NCBI GenBank assembly: GCA_977018835.1
Contig: OZ361258.1
Coordinates: 2,728,001-2,792,000, forward strand
Length of the DNA: 64,000 nt
Source: Minutocellus sp. GHC0000111
Lineage: Eukaryota
Direction of reading: 5' to 3'
Each line of letters opens with the position of its first letter. Position 1 is the stretch's first letter. This document shows, one piece after another, positions 9,533 through 21,631 of the stretch. Under the pieces are notes generated by a model. That model had not been told where the DNA came from. It ran no database searches and saw only the letters and a list, made by a program, of their open reading frames with translations. A program made the translations under genes and the position numbers.

Positions 9533-12500
9533 ATGGCCGAAGGAACCAGCGCCGGCGGTGGACCCGGTCCGTCGGTGCCGCTGGTATCGATGCTACCTTT
9601 TGGCTCCGGGACCGACGGCTCCGGGAATCCGGTAGCTCCGCAGTGGGCCCACGATTTCGTCGCGTTCCGGCAGAGGCTCTTCCTGGCCGTGGTGGAGCCC
9701 GTCATTGTAACGCTGCTGGGTCCGGTCGATCCTCATCATGAGTCCGGTGGTAGTAGCAGTGGTGGCGGTGGTGGAACTTACGATGACAATGGTTATCGAT
9801 TGAATGACCGCGATGGAGGCAGTGGGGGTAGCATCGGTGGTATTGGCGGTAACCATGCACTTGCGCAAGCATCAGCGTCTCGTCATGTGAGTCCTGTTGG
9901 GGACAATGATAATTCGCTGTTGAAAACTGCTGGCCGGATGATGCAGAATTTGGTGGGCTTGGGAGGGGGCGACGATAAATATCATATTGACTGCAACCAT
10001 CATGGCTATGTGAGCGGTCCGTGTTATGATCGTACGACCGGGTCGATTCGGCAAGGTGCGCAGCACATGATGATGTCGGAGGAGGATGAGTTTGCCATGG
10101 CCGATATGTCCACAGAACTGGTTGATGCCAATCACCGACGGCTGGGATTCCTCCCCGCGTACATTGAAGACGTGTCGGCCTACCGAGAGACCAGCATGTC
10201 CTTCGCCACGCTGATGATGCTCTTTACCATCATGAGCTGTCTGATGGTGGTATTCTTGAGCTGCTTCTATCACAATCAAAAGACCAGTCCACTCTTTATC
10301 AGTCCGCGGCGGCATCGGCTGCCCAAGCTGGTACCTCCGCCTCTGCCGGTGGACCGATTTTTTAGCTGGATCAAGGTTATCCTTTTCATGTCGGACGAGG
10401 AAGTAAGTTGGTGGCGCGCGTTTGCATATTTGTGGCGAAGACGTGCTGTATTGATTGCCGTATCATTTGATTTACGCGTCCGTCTTACCCCAACTTTTCC
10501 TTCCTTTATCCTCCAAACAGATCATCAATCGGATCGGATACGATGCTCTCATCTTCCTTCGATTCCATCGCTTGGCTCTCAGATGCATCGTCAAAATGTC
10601 GGTATTCTCTTTTTTTGTGATCCTTCCACTGAACTTTACCGGCGGTGGACATGCCAATGCAAGTGATTTAAAGGGTTACGTTGGGAGTCTCCTGTTCACA
10701 GACTTTATGCGTTTCACCATGGCCAACGTATCTGGTGGATCGCCTTGGCTTTGGGTGCACTGCTTCGCGGCGTATCTTTTGACTGCAATTGTCGTTCGCG
10801 AATTACTGGTAGAATACAATGCATTTCACAATATCAGGCATCGGTACCTGCTTTCGAAGGAGCCTCATCTCCGAACGGTTTTGGTATCCAATTTTCCCCG
10901 GCATTTGCGAGCCCCAAGCAAGATTAGTACCTATTTTCAGCATGTATATCCGGAGGCCGTAAAGTCGGTAGCAATATGTCAAAACCTGATCCGTCTCGAG
11001 TCACTGGTGAAGCGGCGCACGTCAGTGCTGTCGCAGATTGAAAAGGAACTGTTTCTGCTTTGTCGGACTGAAAAGAGAAAGCTCATTGGCCAGACCGGCG
11101 TCCAATGGATCAAACGAGTGCTGTGTTCTAGCTTTCTCCTCGAGAAGATGGGCATTCTACATGGGGCTCAAGAACGCTTAGCTCTTTTGTACTCTGAGCT
11201 TGAAGAATTGAACGAGGCAGTGGAAAATGATAAGAACCGACGTCGGCGTGTCATGAAGAGGCTCGATAAACTGGAAGCTGGAGAAGGTCGAAAAGACATT
11301 GACTATATCTTGGCCACACCCTTTGTCGGCGAGCAAAACTATGACCCAGCCCGTCGAGGGCCGTCGCAAATATTCGATTCGCCTACAAAAGCAGGTATTG
11401 GGGCGCCAAGGAATCCTGATGGATCGATGAAAATTGATAGTTATAATCCACCGACCATGATGGACGGCAGTACTCCAGCGAATACTGGTCCGGTTCTTCG
11501 TCCATCTGCGGCTTCGGCAACATCATCGACTGGGGGGGGTGCACCGGGCAATGATACTGAATCAGTGATTAGCTCTTCAGCCAATACTGATATTTGGCTT
11601 GATGACAAGAAAAACAAACCACGGCCTCTATCGAGAGCGAAGAGTGCCATCCGAAGATACTCTAGACTCGTCGCCGGTGATGTCTCTTTCTTTGGTCAAC
11701 CACAGCGTGGTGCAGATGTAAAATTCGTGCAAACTCCAGCGAATGGCAATCCAAATGTTGCTGGGCACATTGAAGATCACACCAACGAAGTTTGCGACAA
11801 GGCTTTTGTGCAGATGAGAACGTTCACGGCGTCTACTATTGCAATCCAGTCGATGCATTCCGCTAGGCCTGGCGCCATGCAAGTGACTACAGCTCCGGAG
11901 CCGCGAGATGTTATCTGGAATAACATTTATGTGTCCAAGGGGGCGAAGAGGACACGATCGTATATTGGCGAACTCTTTGTCTTACTACTTATTTGTTTCT
12001 ACGTTGTTCCAGTTGCATTGGTGTCCCTGCTTGTCAGTGAATCGGCCTTGATTTCTTCCTCGCCGAGGCTGGCGCAGCTCGACCAAGCGTCGGCCTTCTT
12101 TTCTACGGGCATTGCAATGGTCCAGCCCGTGTGTCTTGTCGCTATTCAACAGCTTCTACCGCCGCTATTCTTGGGCATCAGTATTGCGGAAGGCACCCTC
12201 TCTTTCAGTGAGGCCCAAATGAAGGCCTTCTCTCGCTATTTTTTGTTTCAAGTCTTGAATATTTTCTTGGTCACAGCCATTGCTGGAACCATTTTTGATA
12301 CAGTTGCCGTTATTGTTGAGAATCCTGAGACAGCATTTGAGTTATTGGGCAACTCTCTGCCGCGCATGTCGTCCTTTTTCATCACTTATGCCATTATGAA
12401 GACCTTCCTCGGTCTTGGTTTGGAGCTCGTCCGTCTGGTCTCGCTTGTGCAGCAGGTTCTTCGAATCGTACTCTTCCCGAATTCAACCCTTCGTGAAAAG

Positions 12501-13523
12501 CGATCCATCCGGATTGGAATGAGAGCAATCGATGATCCTGGCTGGTTCCCTTTCCACAAAATTTTGGCCCAGGATATGCTTGTCGTTGTTGTGAGCGTGG
12601 TGTTCGCCGTCGTTGCACCAATTGTGCTGTTTCCCTGCGCCATGTTCTGCCTCTTCAGCCGAATTCTGTGGACGCATCACCACCTCTATGTCTACGAAAG
12701 CGTCTTCGAGACAGGGGGGCAATTTTGGCCAAAGATATTCCGTCGCTTTGTCTTTGGTCTGATTGTAGCTCAAATGACCATTACGGGACAGTTCATTCTC
12801 AAGGAAGCTCGGCACGAGGCTTATGCGACGATTGCGCTGATGATTATGACGTACATTTTCCTTCGATCGACTAGGGCGCGTTATGATGCACCAAGCTCCA
12901 CTTTGCCGCTAGAGGTGGCCACTGTCATGGACATTAGTCTGAGCCAAGAGGAAGAGGCTATCAGGGGAAGGGCCAAGGAAGCGGTCGATAGTCATGCTCA
13001 AAAGTTTACTCACTCTTCCAGCAAAGTACAGTTTGATGAATCTGCTGGAGGTGGCGGTATCGGTGACGGTAGCCGTCCCGAAGATGGAGCTGGCAATGAC
13101 CAGGGCCCAGCATCGCCGCTGTCCAGTCAGCAGAGTGGATCGGCTATCGGTACAATTGACCCGTTTGAACAGGCTTATCTGCAGCCGGCCTTGAGGTCTC
13201 ACGCCAGGGCCAGACCGGAACAGCCGTTTCCACCGGCTCAGTTGGGCCGTGAGGAAGTCTTTTTGGGGAAGAATGCGATTGGCGAGCCTCTTGGTGTTAT
13301 CGGAGAGGAGGCTATTTGTGATGTAAGCGCAACCGTGCGATGCTTGAATCAGCAGGACCGCAAAGCTATTGATGAGTGGTGGAGATACCAAATGCGTTCG
13401 GCAGGGAAGCAGAACAAAATGCGTGTATTGATCGGGGAAGAGAGCGGCACTCTTCAAGCCACATCATATTCCGGACCTCTCCGAAGACAAAAGCCCATGG
13501 TCGATGATGCTTCGTTTGTATAG
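9533..13523 (+). CDS. OSCA/CSC1/TMEM63-family calcium-permeable stress-gated cation channel (1290 aa); exons 9533-10402 and 10521-13523
   Basis: Removing intron 10403-10520 (GTAAGT...CAG) gives SDEEIINRIGYDALIFLRF. Further motifs ILPLNFTGG, FTMANV, LWVH, RTVLVSNFP, APEPRDVIWNNI, FFITY and LYVYESVFETGGQFWP, with many transmembrane helices. Frame intact. Confidence 0.93.
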
Positions 13524-13646
13524 TTGAAATAAATTCTAATTATCCTTCATGTTCGTTTTCGCAGTGCAGTTCACGATGATAAACCTCTAGTAGCTACGTA
13601 GCTAGACGTGTAGAGTCAGGCTTTCTTGTCCGTACGAACTCGTTTT

Positions 13647-14703
13647 CTAGCGAATTGTGCTAAATTGGTCCAAGCTGGGCGTTGAAAACTTTGGAAGCGT
13701 TCGGCTCACCCACCCCTGCCTAGCTGCACTATTGCCATTACCATCATCCCGGGTGGCATTTAGCCCAGAAGAGGGGGCTGCTGCCTCTGCTTCGGCCGCC
13801 ATCATCCGCCGATCTGCTTGTACATCACCAGTTCTTCTCGGACCGAAGATTTTTACCATCCGACAATGCGTATCTCGCCCATTCTGGTGCATCGATGAAA
13901 TGGATATTTGCACAAAGTGTGTACGGAGTGGCATTCGCTTCCCCGAAAGTGGCCCAGCAGCAGGATTGTAACCATCATCGGCATCCGGCCCATCCAACAA
14001 ATCTTCGTCATCGACATCGTCCAATGGATCGTCACCGGGCAAGCGATAAAGCGGGATACTGCACCATCCCTGCGGTTCATTCAGCTCCACGCATTTCACC
14101 TCCTCCAAATCATGAAAGGTATTGCCCACCTTGATACTCATGCGCTTCGGAGTGTATGACTCATCGAGCGCGTAGTCCATGAAAAAGGCAAGCTCACACA
14201 CCGTCTGCCTCTTGGAAAACTGGATGTTGATCAGATGCGGTTGGGCCCCATCGCTCTGCCAATACGTTTCGACGGACGAATCTCGTATCTGTTCCACTCC
14301 ATTGCCGGGCTTGGCCGTCGACAGCGACCAAACCGCCTCGTGTCCAATCTCTCGAACGGTGTAGGAAATGATCGGGTCGGAGAGGGAGGCCAGAGTTTGG
14401 TTTGCTGTGATACGGACAACGTTGCCATCGGTCACTTCCGCAGCGGCATCGTCAGCGGCGTCCTCTCCCTCCTCCTCTTCATATTCCTGTGTGGAATTTT
14501 AAATAAATGGGCGAGCAGGATGATAAGAGGTCCGATACATGACATGCAAACAACATTACGCCACAAAATTTGTTGCGTCGCTCCGACACATGCTCCACAT
14601 GACATGTCAGCGCACAGCATTGAAAAATAAACATGACCCGAGACCAACTCACCTCCTCGCTCGCGTCTTGGCTACGCGTGGCGTCATCATCAGATTGAGA
14701 CAT
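13647..14703 (-). CDS. APC10: Anaphase-promoting complex subunit 10 (DOC1); exons 14653-14703 and 13647-14486
   Basis: REIGHEAVWSLSTAKPGNGVEQIRD, TYWQSDGAQPHLINIQF, DESYTP, HQNGRDTH. Phase-0 GTGAG...CAG intron at 14487-14652 joins MSQSDDDATRSQDASEE to EYEEEEG. Confidence 0.93.
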
Positions 14704-14906
14704 GATGGTTGTGTATAGTAGTAGGTATCCTTCCACCGGGTCGCGTTGGTACGCGCAGCCAAGTGAGCAAGCAAATAATAACTGCTGGGCTCCTGCTGGG
14801 GCTTGCTTGGACTGGCTGTTGCTACACGCTCGAACGCGCTTGCTTGCCTTGCTTGCTTGTCGATGTTCTGTCATCGTCACGCGGAACGCGGTTAGAGTGT
14901 GCCGAG

Positions 14907-14958
14907 AAGTGCAAAAACCTCTACGTGTATGGAAAAAGTGCAGAAACCTCTACGTGTA
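14907..14958. promoter_or_regulatory. Direct-repeat pair AAGTGCA(A/G)AAACCTCTACGTGTA with a 29-nt period, between the divergent APC10 and kelch genes
   Basis: Copies at 14907-14929 and 14936-14958 differ at one position. A regulatory role is inferred from position only. Confidence 0.4.
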
Positions 14959-15153
14959 CGTACATGTGTCATGTACGTACGCGTAGATCAAAAAAAGAGC
15001 CAGCCAGAGCAAAAAGAGCCTTCCGCGAGGCGAGTAGATTTTACATGCAGCAGCTACTAATATTTCCGGCTGGATCTACCTTGGTATCTGCGATCTTTGA
15101 CTTCGATAAGTCAATTTACCTTGCTGTCTCTTCCTCGAAGCGAGCAAGCTAGC

Positions 15154-15879
15154 ATGCTGACTGCCTTGAGATCATCCACATCGTTGCTCTTGAAGCCATC
15201 GGCCAGCAAGAGCCACTCCGTCGCATCATTCTGTCAACACTTTGCTCGCGCATCGTCAACTGCAAAGGTATTGTGGCACAAAATCACCCCAATGCCTGAT
15301 CCTGTCGCTGGATCCCCATGCTCTCGGAGCTCCCACTGTTAGGGTGCTCGAACATGGACCGCCCTAGGAACATCCAGCGTTCTCAAAGGTCGTGGCGGGG
15401 CCAATTTAATCACACTAAAGGATGGAGCTTTAGCAGTCGTCGCTGGATTTGCCGGAGAGGAAACAAATGATGGACATGTGATTGCGTCGAATGGGAAGTG
15501 GGCAGAGGCTGGCATGGAAGGTCTGAGCAGCATGAGGCCACGGAGTGTCTGCGCATCGGCATCCTTTCCAGAAAAGGACGTCGCTATTATCTTTGGGGGC
15601 GAAGTTGATCCCTCGGACCGTGGTCATGAGGGAGCAGGTGGCTTTCAAAACAATGTGGTGATCTTGGACTTTCAATCGGGAGCTCACAAAGAGACCATCC
15701 AAAAGTACTCCAGCGATTCAGAATGGCCCGAAGAACGGGGCTGGTCTGATGGAGACGTAGGCCAAGTCGATTCTTCGCTAGATGGAGAGTCTCTCTTCGT
15801 CTTTGGTGGTCTCTCTGGAGATGACAAAGATCCAAGGAGGCTCGACGATTTGTGGGAATGTAGAATCATGTCAGAGTGA
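15154..15879 (+). pseudogene. Kelch-repeat (nitrile-specifier-protein-like) gene with a large internal deletion and an in-frame stop
   Basis: PCSRSSHC is followed by TAG (15340-15342). The same frame then continues GARTWT...KGRGGANL...VVAGFAGEETND...RPRSV...IFGGEVDPSDRGHEGAGGF...ERGW...FVFGG...RLDDLW, which matches the last blades of NSP-type kelch proteins. The intervening blades are absent. Confidence 0.75.
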
Positions 15880-16114
15880 AGCTGGCAATGTCGGCAAGAC
15901 CTTTGTGTCTAACCCTAACACAAGCTACATGTATGTTGCAACAACTCCACTAGTAACTGATGATAGAATCAGTTTTACGACATACCGGTGCAGACTACAT
16001 GTACTAATACTAGCAAGACCTATATGTAGGACTCTTGACCACTGACAAATGTGGTACTTCTAGCATGAGCGGTAGCATAGCAAGGGTAACGGCGGCCGGC
16101 CAGGTCTTTGGCCC

Positions 16115-16162
16115 GTAAAGTGCAGAAACCTTATCACGTATTAGTAAAGTGCAGGAAGCCTT
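16115..16162. promoter_or_regulatory. Direct-repeat pair GTAAAGTGCAG(G)AA(A/G)CCTT with a 29-nt period, upstream of the MBD-RdRP gene
   Basis: Copies start at 16115 and 16144, with the same core and spacing as the pair at 14907/14936. Confidence 0.4.
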
Positions 16163-16315
16163 TCCTTCAGCAATTTTGTTGATTATTGCTTGCTTGCGGC
16201 CCGCGCGATCCACCTCATCGGCCTCATCTTGCTCGCTTGATTGATTCGATTCTTCCCTCCTGAACGACTAATCCCCTATCCTCGCACAATTGCACCCCGT
16301 AATCTACATCTACCT

Positions 16316-19300
16316 ATGGGGAACAGCGAATCTTTGTCGTCGGTTATGGAAAGCTCGCAAGACGCCACAGCCAAGAGAATTTTAGAAACGGAGACATTGC
16401 ATGTACAAGCATCGATGACACCAGTTCGCAGAGAAACGATTGCGCCAGTAGGACAGATTCCATATGCTGAAGTTGGGGGTACTGTTAGCCATGAATGTGC
16501 CAGTACAGAGAAAGTGTGCGATGAGATCGTTGTGAACTCTGGTCCGACCAGCCGCCTGATCCATGAACGTAGGAATCCTAGGACCGGTCCTAGGAGCAAT
16601 CAAGATTGTCGAGGCACATCAGCTGCAGTGTCAACTTTAGCTTCTACTGCTCAACAGCTGGATTCTCATCATGCTCTGGAGCCAGCACCTAGTATTGGAC
16701 CAGGATGGAAGACTTTTGAGGTTGAGCGAAAGGGCAGCATCATAACGAAGGGTCGTGTGGACCGATACTGGATATCACCCAGTGGGAAGAAATTTCGATC
16801 TGTCAAAGAAATAGAAAGATATCAAGAGACACTCAAGGCAACCAATGGGAATGAGGACGCTGCGTACAGTGCGTCTAAATCTCCTTCGGCCGCGAAAACG
16901 GTAGGAAAGAGAAGAAGGGATGAGACCAACTCAGTGGAGTCTCCCACTCCTCGCAAGTGCCGAAGACGCACATGCACTCAACGCAATGAACCCAAAGGAG
17001 ATCAAACGGTAAAGAAAAGACCTAGTAGTTCTAAAGCGCAGAAAGCGGTCAACAAATTTGATAAAGATGCAAAGAAGAATGAGCAGCAGCAAGAAAGAAC
17101 AGGGCCCTCTCTTGAAATATTGCCCTCAAAAGGGGAGAGCGTTGGAACGAGCCCTCTTGTGGTGAATGGTGGACCTGTGGCTCTCATCGTTATGGCTTAT
17201 CCTGGCAAAGTTGATGGTCGATGTTTTCTCGATGAATTTGCGCCTGGGCGAACAATGAAATTCTCTTTTGATATAACACATTCTTCGAGAGCAAGTTCTT
17301 ACAACCCAGAGGCAGAATTCCAGCTAAACGGTGGTACGTACACCGCCTTGGCCACCCGCTTGGTTGGAGAAGGTGCACGCAGCAGCCATGTATGGTCCCA
17401 AAAGAAAAATGCATGTGTATATTATGTCTTAACCAAGGGTGGAGGCCTTCCTGAATTCAATTTACAAGGAGAACTGGAAAAAATTGCCGACTTCAAATCT
17501 TTAGCATCGTACCAAATTCCAGCTCGTTTGGAGGTAAATGAAGAAGCGCTTTCGATATCATTTTTTTCTGAATTCTTTTGCACTACTCGTATGCATTATT
17601 GCAACATGCTTTTGATAGCACACTCCAGTTCATCCACATGCAACTAACAAAACTGCCTACGCTTGTATGTCTCTATCAATATACAGCTCTTGACCTCGCC
17701 AACCCCGTCTTCCCACCCAGAATATATTCGCAGAGTAGAATCATCATGTTTTGTTACCATTGAAGAAAATGGCAACGAGGGATGCGGATTTGCCCCTTCC
17801 AACTACATCGAAGACTTGCTCGGAAACACCGCCGAAGGAAAACGGGCAGATTCAATCCAGGTAAGAATATTTGGGCCGAACATTGGTATCGCCAAGGGAA
17901 TGCTGGTGAAGAAAGCGTCCGCCAAAAAAAATTGAGCTACCTCGATCGATGGTAAAGGTGCCACCTTCCAAATGCTGTAAAGAAAACTGGGTGGCTGTGG
18001 TGGTAAAGGACGCCTTCCCGTCCAAAAAGAATCAATCGATCGGAAACATTTTGGACCCAGACAAAAAAGATCCTAGTCCCAGTGCATCAGAGGAGCTGAA
18101 ACAAAATGTTAAATTATCGGTTATGTATAAGAAACTGTTGCAGGGTTTTGGCGTCCCGGGAAGTGTTCTCGACAAATATTGCGCGTCATTCAAGCGTTCA
18201 GTAGGTGCTTTGAGGCATGCTCACTTGGCGGTAAGTAATGTCATGAAAGGTCTCTTGAGCGGCGCCACGCATAGGGATCCCTATTTGAACATGCTGCGTC
18301 GATTCCATTGATGATATCTGGGGAAAGGTATTACTAATTTATTTGTTTCCCATTTTTTCGCCGAATGTACTCTTATCACGAAGGGCGTTGCCGATCCTAC
18401 TGGCCAACTCCCCCCGGGCAAAGTGTTCATTTCTGGCTACGTTGGCGACAAGCGCGGTGTCCGAAGGCTCTTCGGCGACGTGCATGCCAAAGTATTTTTG
18501 TCCCGGTCCCCCGCTTTGGTGCCAAGTGATGCCAAGCTGCTCGAGGTGGTGGGACAAAAGCCGCTGGAAATGTCGAGCGAAAATTGGAAACACCTTTGTG
18601 GCCTTGGTTTTGGTATTGTAGTTTTTCCTGCGCCACAGGAGGGGATGCCGTCGTTACCTTATCAGATCGCCGAGGGCGATTTGGACGGTGATTTGGTGAG
18701 AATGTTGGTTGCTTGCGTGATTATTTTATTTTCGCTTTACAGAGCAATGTCCCGTGTAATGAAAACTAATCTTTTTGCCTCTCCGTATCGATTCGTCCAC
18801 CGTAGTATCTTTGTGTCTTCGCTCCTGCGATTCTAACAAGCTTAGAAAAGTCAAGCAATCAAGCAAAAATGGAGTTGCAAGTGCGCCTTCCATCCATCAC
18901 CAATGGAACCCTATCTTCAATTACGAAGCGCTTCGAGACGATGTCTATTCACACAAAAGAGGGTGCTATTGACCCTTTTATAGACTCTTCCTACTCTATA
19001 CCATGGCTTTTCGACTCGCAGAAAATATTTCTTGATCTCGCCGTTATGGCTGAGAGCAACTCCCTGACTGGTAAATTATATGGATTATGCAACAAGAAGA
19101 TTGACGAGCACGGCTTTACTCATCACGATGTGAAAGTTTTATCGAGAGCTTACAAAGATTCTCTGGATTCGAAGAAGCACCGTCTGACAATCAGATTGCC
19201 GCCAGAGCTACGGAAGGAGATGCCTAGCAGCTTATGGCATCTACTAGATAGAGTTGAGGATGTAGACATTGACTGCAATGCCAATGACCATTCCCCTCAA

Positions 19301-19693
19301 GGAACATTTGGTTTTGAATCGATACTAAGTCACACCAAGGATCAGAAAGGGAGATGCCTTTTCCAAGTGGAATGGGACTCAGGTGAAATAACAACGGAGC
19401 CAGATACATTTCTCAGGGAAGATGATCCTGTGACGTTCAAGGCTTATCTGCGGTCTTCTGGGCTCGCGTTCACATCCAAGAAATACGCAGATTGGGCAAG
19501 ATCAGTTGAGAGTGATTCGAACTCGGCCGATGATGATGACTCAAGCTCTGAAGAAGAGATCGAAGATGATCCCTCTTTCGTCACGGTCACAGATCAGTTT
19601 GGGAACGTTAGGCGAGTATCCGCCTATGAAGCAGCACGCATCGAACGAATTCGCCGCAACAACGAACGCCTGGCTTCCCTTGGTCTGCTCTAG
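16316..19693 (+). CDS. MBD - RNA-dependent RNA polymerase - chromo-like fusion protein (about 986 aa); exons 16316-17533, 17687-18230, 18384-18695, 18806-19693; one extra A in the A8 run at 17924-17931
   Basis: Three phase-0 GT-AG introns (17534-17686, 18231-18383, 18696-18805) give a collinear cellular-RdRP motif series: [115 protein letters not shown] at 16688-16822; chromo-like segment at 19307-19500. Confidence 0.85.
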
Positions 19694-19820
19694 CTATCTA
19701 GCTAGCTAGCTCCGTAGGAGGTACGTATGTAGCTGAAAATAATATACATATTGCAATATTGCATATTTGTACCAGCTGGCACTACAAAGCTACGTAGCTA
19801 GCTAGAGTACTAGGTACAGC

Positions 19821-21368
19821 TTAAAGGTCGAGATCATCGTCCAAATCCTCTTCATCCATGTCATCGAACTCAGGGTCATCATCCTGAACGAAAATTCGAG
19901 GCCCGGATTTGGACGTTGGCTGACTTTGAGAGTGATCGCCGGCCGTTGCCTTTGTTGCTGCTGCGCTATTTGCCGTATCTCGACCTTCTTCTCCAATTTG
20001 AAGGGTCGGACGGCTTCGCTGTGATGACGATGATGAAGCTGAGGGAGCTTGTGAAGTCGAACTGGCAAGCTCCATCGATGCAAGCTTCTCGGCCGTCGTC
20101 GGCAGCAGCGACTCGTCTCCCCCACTAGCATCGTTCCTAGCCTTGGTCTTTCGCTGCACAACTACCTTCTTTCTCTCTTCTTTGTCACTTTGACCGGACA
20201 ATTTCAGCAATACCAACCTTTCAGCACTTTTGTATCCCAACCCTGTCGCACCAGGTTGTTGTTGTTGTTGTTTCTGCAGCTGGTTTTGTTCCAGGGAAAA
20301 TTGCTGAACATCAGTGCCCAATCGTCCAGCCGCACCACCAACCTTGCCATCGCCACCACCTCTCCTCATTGTCCGCATCTCTCCGCCAGATAGCGTTACA
20401 ATAGCATCTGCCTCATCCTCGAAACGGCGCATATCGGCCGGCTGGATGCTTTCGATCGAAATCGGCGCGACAATGGGTGACAGGGCGATATTATTCGATG
20501 CGCCGTTGATGTTATTGCCGACCGTTCCCCGTCCTAGCAGACGCTGCAAAAAACGATACGTCTTTGCCGAACCATGGTAACTAAGCAATGGGATGATGGA
20601 ATCGAAAATCACGGGGATATCTCTTGTGGCTTCGTTTCCATTTCCGTCGTCAGTTGATGGAATCGACGCTGCGGCACGTTCAATCGTCGCCAGCACAGCC
20701 TTGAGGCTGTCCATTCTCGATGAGTACCAACGATGAGTAGTAGATGGTGCATCATCGTCCTCTTCCTTGTTCTCTCCATCTTCCTCGTCATCACTCTCAT
20801 CCCAACCCAGCGGATCGGATGCCAGATCGACCGTCGCACCATTCCGTTGGAACTGCGCCGCCCATCCACTGTCATCCAATGCATGTGCAGTTCCACAATC
20901 ACCATCACTCCTGGACGGCACACTCAGATTATTCGCAAGTGACACCCACACCACCCTCCCCCCTGTCCGGGAGGCCACCTCCTCCAAGGCCGAGAGTGCC
21001 AGCATATGACCGGCCAAATCCCTCGTGGCCGATTCCGACGGAGTCCGCAGTCCTGCGAGACGGTAGAGCGCATCTTCCGAGGTGGCATTGCTGTTGCTAA
21101 TGGTATCAGACGACACCTTTCTAGAAGTGCCGACCCTCCTGCCTCCCTTTCGACTTCCGCTTCCGTCGGAAGCGCTGGCATCGGCCGGACTCGAGGCTGT
21201 GAGGCGGGTGGTCAGATCGGCAGTGTGCTGAAGTAGGACCAGCCGCGATCTCTTGTTGCTGCCACTGGTACATGGTGTACCGTCTTTTGCCTTTTGCGAT
21301 GATGACAATGACGACGGTGGCCGGGGTAGGAGGCACCGAACGAACGGTGCAGCGGCAGACGTAGCCAT
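19821..21368 (-). CDS. ELP5: Probable Elongator complex subunit 5 (515 aa)
   Basis: C-terminus RIFVQDDDPEFDDMDEEDLDDDLDL matches the acidic ELP5 tail; internal DLASDPLGW, PVIFDSIIPLLSYHG and ADAIVTL fit the RecA-like ELP5 core. ATG at 21368, frame intact. Confidence 0.65.
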   Translation of the reverse strand: MATSAAAPFVRCLLPRPPSSLSSSQKAKDGTPCTSGSNKRSRLVLLQHTADLTTRLTASSPADASASDGSGSRKGGRRVGTSRKVSSDTISNSNATSEDALYRLAGLRTPSESATRDLAGHMLALSALEEVASRTGGRVVWVSLANNLSVPSRSDGDCGTAHALDDSGWAAQFQRNGATVDLASDPLGWDESDDEEDGENKEEDDDAPSTTHRWYSSRMDSLKAVLATIERAAASIPSTDDGNGNEATRDIPVIFDSIIPLLSYHGSAKTYRFLQRLLGRGTVGNNINGASNNIALSPIVAPISIESIQPADMRRFEDEADAIVTLSGGEMRTMRRGGGDGKVGGAAGRLGTDVQQFSLEQNQLQKQQQQQPGATGLGYKSAERLVLLKLSGQSDKEERKKVVVQRKTKARNDASGGDESLLPTTAEKLASMELASSTSQAPSASSSSSQRSRPTLQIGEEGRDTANSAAATKATAGDHSQSQPTSKSGPRIFVQDDDPEFDDMDEEDLDDDLDL

Positions 21369-21631
21369 GGGTGGTCTCAACCAAACCAGAAAAATGCCAC
21401 CCTTGAAACATGAGACGCGTGCGACGGCCAGACTGAAAGACTCTGCACATGCGCTGCTGCTGCGCATGCGTTCACTCAACAAGATACCGGCCAGCCAGTC
21501 CCAGCACATCTTGTGTGTTGATAACTCTCGATTGGTTGCATCGCTAAAGTACATTGGATATTTGATTGCGCTGCCAGCCTTAAAGAAGCAGTCGTCTCAT
21601 ATCATACATTCATCGCCACAAACAAATATTC
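21369..21631. promoter_or_regulatory. Putative bidirectional promoter (263 nt) between the ELP5-like gene and the giant FG-repeat gene
   Basis: Head-to-head ATGs at 21368 (-) and 21632 (+). Confidence 0.5.

What the first reader, a model, noticed from the sequence alone, without database searches (positions are those of the whole stretch)
16316..19693. One protein joins a methyl-CpG reader, an RNAi-type RdRP and a chromo-like domain: candidate chromatin-targeted silencing enzyme
Seen: five separate ORFs join through three clean phase-0 introns and one A-run correction into about 986 aa. The MBD ([40 protein letters not shown]) keeps both Arg fingers and the Asp/Tyr positions used for methyl-CpG recognition in MBD2/MeCP2. 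It is followed by basic NLS-like tracts, a cellular RdRP with an intact DLDGD catalytic loop, a chromo-like domain and a terminal helix. Established: plant RDR2 and fission-yeast Rdp1 reach heterochromatin through separate partners (Pol IV/SHH1/CLSY and RITS/Chp1). Inference: here targeting is built into the polymerase, which could directly couple methylated transposon DNA to dsRNA/siRNA production. I know of no described RdRP with this architecture, but I cannot search.
Basis: partly seen in the sequence, partly recalled or inferred. Interest (0 to 1): 0.88.

Follow-up and report, generated by a model that had tools for sequence, protein, structure and literature searches.

The report
Broken methyl-DNA-reading compact RNA polymerase gene
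This spliced, transcribed gene, likely from a diatom, joins a methyl-CpG-binding-type domain to a shortened RNAi-type polymerase, but a real one-base frameshift stops it before the active site, so it is likely a decaying copy of a family whose intact members are predicted to make silencing RNA while tethered to chromatin.

Summary
The gene model is right. All three introns are spliced in RNA contigs. The MBD and the RdRP catalytic exon pass Pfam cut-offs.

The 'A-run correction' is wrong. The 8-A run stands unchanged in 4 of 4 RNA assemblies from 2 studies, so the frame ends at 488 aa, before DLDGD. Other alleles carry a 20-base loss or a stop at codon 235. Of 150 family hits, 148 read through the site. 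This copy is most likely a transcribed pseudogene.

The family is the real result: 378 clusters of compact QDE-1/RDR2-fold polymerases with no head domain. Named members come from diatoms and dinoflagellates. Of 85 long members, 30 carry chromo, chromo-like, Tudor, PWWP, PHD or MBD-like modules. A near-identical MBD sits in a Sen1-like helicase.

The C-terminal chromo-like domain matches only a family-built profile. No single intact ORF with a canonical MBD plus DLDGD was found. Methyl-DNA binding and polymerase activity are untested.

The scan noted similar reader-RdRP fusions in other genomes. No paper describing them turned up; one key diatom RNAi paper was not held.

The parts
16316..17533 (+). 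Exon 1 (406 codons): disordered N-terminus, MBD, basic tracts, start of the polymerase core (from about 17153)
16576..16595 (.). Perfect 20-base palindrome at an in-frame 7-codon insertion that close relatives lack; one allele has lost 20 bases here (16585-16604), which stops the frame at codon 119
16691..16825 (+). MBD (PF01429) with the Arg/Asp/Tyr/Arg positions of MBD2; nearly identical to the MBD of a PDZ-MBD-Sen1-like helicase
17534..17686 (+). Intron 1, 153 bases, GT-AG, phase 0
   Evidence: spliced in 4 of 4 RNA runs; relatives' exon-1 read-through proteins diverge at the same place
17687..18230 (+). Exon 2 (544 bases): first double-psi barrel region with EGCGF and QVR..KG (17858-17899); carries the frameshift
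17924..17935 (+). Run of 8 A followed by the in-frame stop TGA (17933-17935); the rest of the gene is in the +1 frame; present in transcripts
18231..18383 (+). Intron 2, 153 bases, GT-AG, phase 0
   Evidence: spliced in 4 of 4 RNA runs
18384..18695 (+). Exon 3 (104 codons): second barrel with R-S-P (18504-18512) and DLDGD (18678-18692)
18696..18805 (+). Intron 3, 110 bases, GT-AG, phase 0
   Evidence: spliced in 2 of 4 RNA runs; one low-depth contig of X6 runs into it
18806..19693 (+). Exon 4 (295 codons plus stop): flap helices that end the core at about 19249, then a tail
19304..19471 (+). Degenerate chromo-like domain of the kind found in tandem inside one clade of the family
   Evidence: family profile E 1.5e-6; no Pfam or PDB hit; Atlas lead 0.85
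19622..19681 (+). Predicted terminal charged helix, no homolog among 201 proteins held

Best explanation
The locus is a spliced, transcribed gene, likely diatom, for an MBD fused to a compact RNAi-type polymerase, and it is likely a recent pseudogene because a real one-base frameshift ends the frame at 488 aa, before the catalytic aspartates. Shown: splicing, the frameshift in RNA, further frame-breaking alleles, the MBD, and the QDE-1/RDR2 fold without a head domain in an intact relative. Inferred for intact relatives: the MBD (or the chromo, Tudor or PHD module of other members) holds a monomeric polymerase on methylated, silent chromatin such as transposons. There it would copy nascent transcripts into dsRNA for Dicer, which feeds small-RNA-guided silencing back to the same loci. 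I put the pseudogene reading at about 0.75. I put the tethered-RdRP mechanism of intact relatives at about 0.5.
For: Pseudogene:
- The A8 run is ungapped in 4 of 4 spliced RNA contigs from 2 studies.
- Database proteins of this gene end in KKN (P0021, P0176, P0177). Others carry a 20-base loss (P0175, P0177; run X8) or a stop after codon 234 (P0012 on a 908-kb contig; P0175 on a short contig).
- 148 of 150 family hits cross the site in one ORF, and the only one that ends there is this gene. The 83%-identical relative reads KKASATKIELP in frame.
- 6 of 7 coding differences among the RNA contigs change a residue, against 3 of 10 in a co-expressed paralog (Fisher one-sided p 0.036).
- A recent break is suggested by the window keeping 53 of 56 columns that are conserved in 85% or more of the family.

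Family:
- 378 clusters at E up to 0.001; 79 of 85 long members hit PF05183.
- The model of P0023 has pLDDT over 90 across most of the core. It matches QDE-1 (Z 24.2, rmsd 3.5, 431 aligned, chain 510-1142) and maize RDR2 (Z 22.0, rmsd 3.8, 422 aligned).
- The QDE-1 head is residues 837-888 and 1196-1372 (PMC1750930, passages). A QDE-1 377-1192 truncation is monomeric and keeps both activities (PMC9508822, section 23).
- Diatom 25-30 nt small RNAs map to methylated transposons (PMC4247016, passages).
Against: - No DNA run could be laid on the stretch, and contigs drop rare variants, so an intact allele is not excluded.
- The three KKN proteins are probably called from the same kind of RNA contigs as (P0177's contig has X8's length, 2141), so they are not independent of it.
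- The transcript persists despite a stop upstream of two junctions.
- The SNP test rests on 7 and 10 sites.
- No single intact ORF with a canonical MBD and DLDGD was found: the search for longer proteins covered only 857-2445 aa and returned 4 helicases. Intactness of close relatives is pieced together from exon-wise proteins.
- The aspartate matching QDE-1 D709 is Glu here, and is D or E in only 60 of 134 members.
- The annotated Thalassiosira exigua member lacks DLDGD.
- 55 of 85 long members show no reader module, and 16 of 85 carry KOW domains.
Confidence: 0.72

Rival explanations
1. Intact members are chromatin-tethered DNA-templated polymerases: they would transcribe methylated DNA into aberrant RNA and then copy it to dsRNA, as QDE-1 does, standing in for plant Pol IV plus RDR2. 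This concerns the family's mechanism and is compatible with this copy being broken.
For: QDE-1 uses both DNA and RNA templates (PMC2950127, abstract start in search listing; PMC9508822, passages), also as a headless monomer (section 23). QDE-1 is the best structural match, and phage DNA-dependent polymerases of similar size come next (P74 gp62: Z 17.4, rmsd 3.6, 346 aligned). A DNA-binding domain brings the enzyme to DNA, not RNA. The same MBD is on a helicase.
Against: Template choice cannot be read from the fold. RDR2 scores almost as high (Z 22.0) and is the best sequence match of the family profile (E 1.5e-15). The helicase is Sen1/UPF1-like, not the RecQ type that QDE-1 works with (recalled).
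Confidence: 0.25
2. The 488-aa truncated product (MBD, basic tracts and a polymerase fragment) is made and kept as a methyl-DNA-binding protein or as a dominant-negative regulator.
For: The transcript is spliced and present in two studies. The MBD keeps its key residues. The break is in all four RNA contigs.
Against: Alleles with a stop at codon 119 (before the MBD) or at codon 235 segregate. Missense changes dominate on both sides of the break.
Confidence: 0.08
3. The A8 run is a programmed +1 ribosomal frameshift site that yields the full 986-aa enzyme at low level.
For: An A run directly before a stop codon is slippery in principle, and the downstream frame is open with its catalytic motifs intact.
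Against: The site is not conserved: 148 of 150 relatives are in frame. Upstream null alleles exist. I know of no such recoding in diatoms (recalled, not searched).
Confidence: 0.06
4. One reading: the A run is an assembly error, or a null allele beside intact ones, and the gene is functional in this organism.
For: Homopolymer errors are common in long-read assemblies (general knowledge). Contigs show only the dominant allele.
Against: Four short-read RNA assemblies from two studies carry the same 8 A, and they differ from each other at other sites, so several alleles were sampled.
Confidence: 0.08
5. The reader modules are passengers of frequent domain shuffling; this MBD binds DNA without methyl preference, or no longer matters.
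For: Accessory domains change often across the tree. MBD-like domains of P0015-17, P0023 and P0024 are degenerate. The near-identical MBD in a helicase suggests a recent copy.
Against: Fusions are repeatedly of chromatin-reader type in several separate clades. The MBD is nearly invariant among relatives whose flanks differ by 20-45%.
Confidence: 0.2

Closest known systems
Neurospora QDE-1 (PDB 2J7N, 7Y7P) and plant RDR2 (7W84, 7EU0); cellular RdRP family PF05183
   Same: Two double-psi barrels; DLDGD; Q/R/K of the first barrel; R-x-P loop; flap helices.
   Different: The core is about 480-510 aa and ends at QDE-1 about 1142 / RDR2 about 934, so there is no head (dimer/clamp) domain. The D709 position is Glu or non-acidic. 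Chromatin readers are fused in. This copy is frameshifted.
Plant Pol IV-RDR2 with SHH1/CLSY, and S. pombe RDRC-RITS (recalled)
   Same: Proposed logic: an RdRP placed at silent chromatin by a mark reader.
   Different: There the readers are separate proteins; here they are in the polymerase chain. No function was tested here.
MBD2/MBD1 methyl-CpG-binding domain
   Same: E 2e-9 to MBD2; Arg, Asp, Tyr and Arg positions aligned.
   Different: Fused to a polymerase and, in the same lineage, to a Sen1-like helicase; binding untested.
Diatom RdRPs listed by De Riso 2009 (PMC2724275, passages)
   Same: Diatoms were known to have one or two putative RdRP genes per genome.
   Different: The passages read give no domain architecture. 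Whether those genes belong to the compact family was not tested.
Thermus phage P74 gp62 / P23-45 single-chain RNA polymerases
   Same: Minimal two-barrel polymerase of about 600 aa (Z 17.4, rmsd 3.6, 346 aligned).
   Different: 10-13% identity; no sequence match of a family member in the phage collection.

Membership tests
Cellular RdRP (QDE-1/RDR, PF05183) | DxDGD catalytic loop in the second barrel | tested here: met
   DLDGD at 18678-18692; Pfam 46.4 bits against a cut-off of 23.8
Cellular RdRP (QDE-1/RDR, PF05183) | Two double-psi beta-barrel fold | tested here: met
   Shown on the intact relative P0023 (Z 24.2, rmsd 3.5, 431 aligned). The window protein itself was not folded but aligns over the core
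Cellular RdRP (QDE-1/RDR, PF05183) | Product- and NTP-binding residues matching QDE-1 Q736, R738, K743, R962, P964 | tested here: met
   QVR..KG and RSP are present and conserved in the family; the residue roles are from PMC9508822 passages; matching is by motif
Cellular RdRP (QDE-1/RDR, PF05183) | First-barrel aspartate (QDE-1 D709) | tested here: not met
   Glu in the window; D in 16 and E in 44 of 134 members; an acid four residues earlier in 115 of 134 may substitute
Cellular RdRP (QDE-1/RDR, PF05183) | Neck and head domains after the flap | tested here: not met
   The structural match ends at QDE-1 1142 together with the end of the protein. 52 of 92 members end 100-150 aa after the loop; longer ones mostly hold chromo-like inserts
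Cellular RdRP (QDE-1/RDR, PF05183) | Uninterrupted reading frame through the active site | tested here: not met
   Stop at 17933-17935 in the window and in 4 of 4 RNA contigs
Cellular RdRP (QDE-1/RDR, PF05183) | RNA-templated RNA synthesis feeding Dicer | not testable with these tools
   Needs an enzyme assay and a knockout
MBD (PF01429) | Profile score above cut-off and conserved Arg/Asp/Tyr/Arg | tested here: met
MBD (PF01429) | Preference for symmetric methyl-CpG | not testable with these tools
   Binding assay needed
Chromodomain (PF00385) | Profile match for the C-terminal domain | tested here: not met
   No Pfam hit. Only a link through P0076 (E 2.5e-8), whose own Chromo score is below cut-off
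Chromodomain (PF00385) | Chromo fold and three-residue aromatic cage | tested here: inconclusive
   Single-sequence model is poor (mean pLDDT 52.5). By eye, two of three cage positions are aromatic (cage positions recalled)
Programmed +1 frameshift gene | Shift site conserved among relatives | tested here: not met
   148 of 150 hits in frame

The most novel reading that the evidence does not exclude
Diatoms and dinoflagellates have an undescribed, expanded family of headless, monomeric QDE-1-type polymerases that carry their own chromatin readers. In the MBD clade a single chain binds methylated DNA and makes both the first RNA and its complement, doing the work of plant SHH1/CLSY, Pol IV and RDR2, with an MBD-bearing Sen1-like helicase recruited to the same sites. 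Such nucleosome-scale synthesis could explain the unexplained 180-nt periodic small RNAs over methylated regions in Phaeodactylum.
Probability: 0.2. Interest if true: 0.88.

Novelty: new variant of a known kind. Interest (0 to 1): 0.58.

Why it matters
How small RNAs are produced from methylated transposons in diatoms is open. They have Dicer-dependent heterochromatic small RNAs (PMC11910954, passage citing Grypioti 2024), and a 180-nt periodic pattern that awaits explanation (PMC4247016). Pol IV is plant-specific (recalled). A polymerase family with built-in readers of methyl-CpG and histone marks gives a direct, testable candidate for the missing link. It is also a natural minimal RNAi polymerase of about 500 aa. 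This particular copy is a poor experimental target because it is broken; intact relatives such as P0023/P0179 are the ones to test.

Tried and rejected
- No own genome is held, so copy number and the paralog's locus could not be checked. No second copy is in the window.
- A cryptic intron that bypasses the frameshift: 25 candidate GT/GC-AG pairs exist, but no such joint is in the RNA contigs. The best-looking one (17861-17915) would delete the conserved VR..KG residues.
- Full-length MBD-RdRP proteins: the 857-2445 aa search returned only 4 helicases, and only 7981 candidates were scored.
- Loci of relatives: 1 distant locus from metagenome contigs. None came from viral contigs, prokaryotic genomes or phages. 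These are weak negatives, and the alignment query was too diverse for the locus search.
- The Atlas lists bacterial RdRP-domain clusters at 0.94-0.95 beside plant ones; this does not show gene transfer.
- Folding the C-terminal tail alone gave a poor model, which was not searched.
- The terminal helix reminded me of the HELLS-binding helix of CDCA7 (recalled). PMC11343034 passages describe that helix, but its alignment is in a figure that is not held, so this was not tested; Pfam gave no real hit.
- CpG depletion does not set the gene apart from its neighbours.
- Literature: ten searches, four of them aimed at RdRP fusions or architecture, found no paper on a reader-fused or headless diatom RdRP. 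Grypioti et al. 2024, which surveys diatom RNAi genes, is not held, and it or its supplements may describe them. Supplements of the papers read were not opened.
Full report
Observation. The region holds four exons (16316-17533, 17687-18230, 18384-18695, 18806-19693) separated by GT-AG phase-0 introns of 153, 153 and 110 bases. Read through the break, they give 986 aa. Pfam finds an MBD in exon 1 (E 1.4e-7) and the RdRP model on exon 3 (E 3.2e-12), and nothing in either part of exon 2 or in exon 4. The MBD aligns to MBD2 with both arginines, the aspartate and the tyrosine in place (that these are the methyl-CpG contacts is recalled).

Expression. Of 18 runs listed, 14 hold the stretch or a part, 8 of them RNA. 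I laid 4 RNA runs from 2 studies. Introns 1 and 2 are spliced in 4 of 4, intron 3 in 2 of 4. Exons 1-2-3 lie on one contig in three runs and exons 3-4 on one contig in two; no single contig spans the whole gene. The contig break near 18449-18478 coincides with a diverged, expressed paralog seen in X7 and X8.

The break is real. All four RNA contigs cross the 8-A run without a gap, although the same table reports a 1-base gap elsewhere. The frame therefore ends at 17935 after 488 aa, inside the first barrel and before DLDGD. Database proteins from spliced contigs end in KKN too (P0021, P0176, P0177), though these likely come from the same kind of contigs. Two more lesions segregate. One is a 20-base loss at 16585-16604 (X8; P0175, P0177) that stops the frame at codon 119. 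The other is a stop after codon 234, seen both on a 908-kb contig (P0012) and on a 1696-base Logan contig (P0175). Of 150 family hits, 148 run through the site in one ORF, one ends there (this gene), and one was not aligned across it. Six of 7 coding differences among the RNA contigs are missense, against 3 of 10 in the paralog stretch (one-sided p 0.036, two-sided 0.050). The window still keeps 53 of 56 well-conserved core columns, so the loss looks recent. Limits: no DNA run was laid, and contigs hide rare alleles.

The family. Exon 2 read in the +1 frame finds 378 clusters at 50% identity with E up to 0.001; the best 150 were examined. Named members come from Thalassiosira exigua, Proboscia alata, Cyclotella cryptica and Durusdinium trenchii. 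From this I infer a diatom origin for the window; most members are unnamed. Of the 85 hits of 590 aa or more, 79 match PF05183, mostly over only part of the model. The core is about 480-510 aa in members without inserts. AlphaFold2 on the intact member P0023 with an 89-row alignment is confident over the core. It matches QDE-1 (Z 24.2, rmsd 3.5, 431 aligned, residues 510-1142), maize RDR2 (Z 22.0, rmsd 3.8, 422 aligned) and phage P74 gp62 (Z 17.4, rmsd 3.6, 346 aligned); Foldseek gives the same order. QDE-1's head domain (837-888, 1196-1372) makes most of the dimer contact (PMC1750930, passages), so the family is headless. A QDE-1 truncation at 1192 is a monomer with both RNA- and DNA-templated activity (PMC9508822, section 23), so loss of the head need not kill the enzyme. 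Against full activity: the D709 position, where alanine weakens QDE-1 (same paper, passage), is acidic in only 60 of 134 members.

Reader modules. Among the 85 long members, 11 have Pfam hits at E up to 0.01 to Chromo, MSL3 chromo-like, Tudor, PWWP, PHD or CXXC, several of them below the curated cut-off. Twenty carry chromo-like domains by a profile that I built from family members; most have two in tandem after the catalytic loop. Three carry MBD-like domains: two were seeds of my profile, and P0028 was found at E 1e-13. The union is 30 of 85. Sixteen carry KOW domains, two helicase-associated repeats and one RNase H. In a FastTree tree of 87 cores (325 columns, midpoint root, fragments left out, no canonical RDR outgroup), the window groups with P0001, P0023, P0028, P0024 and P0027 at support 0.94. 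So MBD-type fusion marks one subclade. Close relatives known only as exon-wise proteins combine the same first-exon polymerase part with a canonical MBD (P0008-P0011), Tudor plus MBD (P0014), or MBD-like plus chromo with or without Tudor (P0015-P0017). P0011 and P0203 lie on contigs of equal length (3196), as do P0220 and P0202 (3207). That suggests, but does not show, that MBD exon and intact catalytic exons share a contig. No single ORF with a canonical MBD and DLDGD was retrieved. P0023/P0179 is a single ORF with a degenerate MBD-like domain, a canonical chromodomain and the intact core.

A shared MBD. The window's MBD is almost identical to that of PDZ-MBD-helicase proteins (P0185-P0188) whose best solved relatives are Sen1-type helicases. 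This points to a recent domain copy within the lineage. It may also mean that polymerase and helicase are sent to the same methylated sites, which is a guess.

C-terminal tail. Residues 167-222 of exon 4 match the family's chromo-like profile (E 1.5e-6; best reversed decoy E 5). They do not match Pfam or solved chromodomains. The nearest exon-4 relatives (P0002, P0207, P0209) end in an acidic tail without this domain or the terminal helix, so the three-part architecture may be local.

Mechanism. Shown: gene structure, splicing, frameshift, further lesions, fold and headless architecture of a relative, and repeated reader fusions. Inferred: that this copy is a decaying pseudogene (about 0.75); that intact members are tethered to methylated or marked chromatin and make dsRNA from nascent transposon RNA (about 0.5), or transcribe DNA themselves as QDE-1 can (about 0.25). 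Diatom small RNAs of 25-30 nt cover methylated transposons with a 180-nt period (PMC4247016, passages), which fits but does not test this.

What is known. PMC2724275 and PMC3145265 (passages) list diatom RdRP genes without architecture. PMC4791657 (passages) notes varied numbers in diatoms and a helicase-fused oomycete RDR. Ten searches found no description of this family (listed under Tried and rejected); Grypioti 2024 was not available. The scan itself noted three chromodomain- or reader-RdRP fusions in other genomes, one of them also frameshifted; these are unchecked notes, not support.

Verdict. A new variant of a known enzyme kind. The locus as flagged is a broken copy, while the family-level architecture is real and worth testing.

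Noticed in passing
window 21632-47224 (+), repeats continuing to the window end: Giant ORF (8546 aa stop to stop) with a cyclophilin domain, RanBP2-type zinc fingers and FG-rich tracts, built of tandem units of about 3.2-3.4 kb (one 30-mer recurs 12 times from 26001 to 61891). It looks like a RanBP2/Nup358-like nucleoporin with an extreme repeat expansion or an assembly expansion.
   Followed up: partly
window 16576-16595: A perfect 20-base palindrome inside a 21-base in-frame insertion absent from relatives; it resembles a hairpin-type transposon excision footprint (recalled), and one allele has deleted part of it.
   Followed up: partly
P0185-P0188, P0018: PDZ-MBD-Sen1-like helicases whose MBD is nearly identical to the one in this gene.
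   Followed up: partly
window 18479-18695, contigs of X7 and X8: An expressed paralog, differing mostly at synonymous sites and spliced at the same third intron; it may be the intact copy.
   Followed up: partly
P0038, P0047, P0088 and about 17 others; L001 835-1893: A clade with tandem chromo-like domains inserted between the catalytic loop and the flap helices; L001 shows the same insert and two overlapping frames, so it may be broken as well.
   Followed up: partly
P0109; P0029 and P0041; P0005: Other fusions of the compact polymerase: RNase H1 (P0109), helicase-associated repeats (Proboscia alata cluster), and KOW domains in a dinoflagellate.
   Followed up: no
window 10455-21596: Neighbours are ordinary housekeeping genes: an OSCA/TMEM63-type channel, APC10, a kelch-repeat protein, and a convergent gene with a weak DUF7504 hit. 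Nothing suggests a silencing gene cluster.
   Followed up: yes
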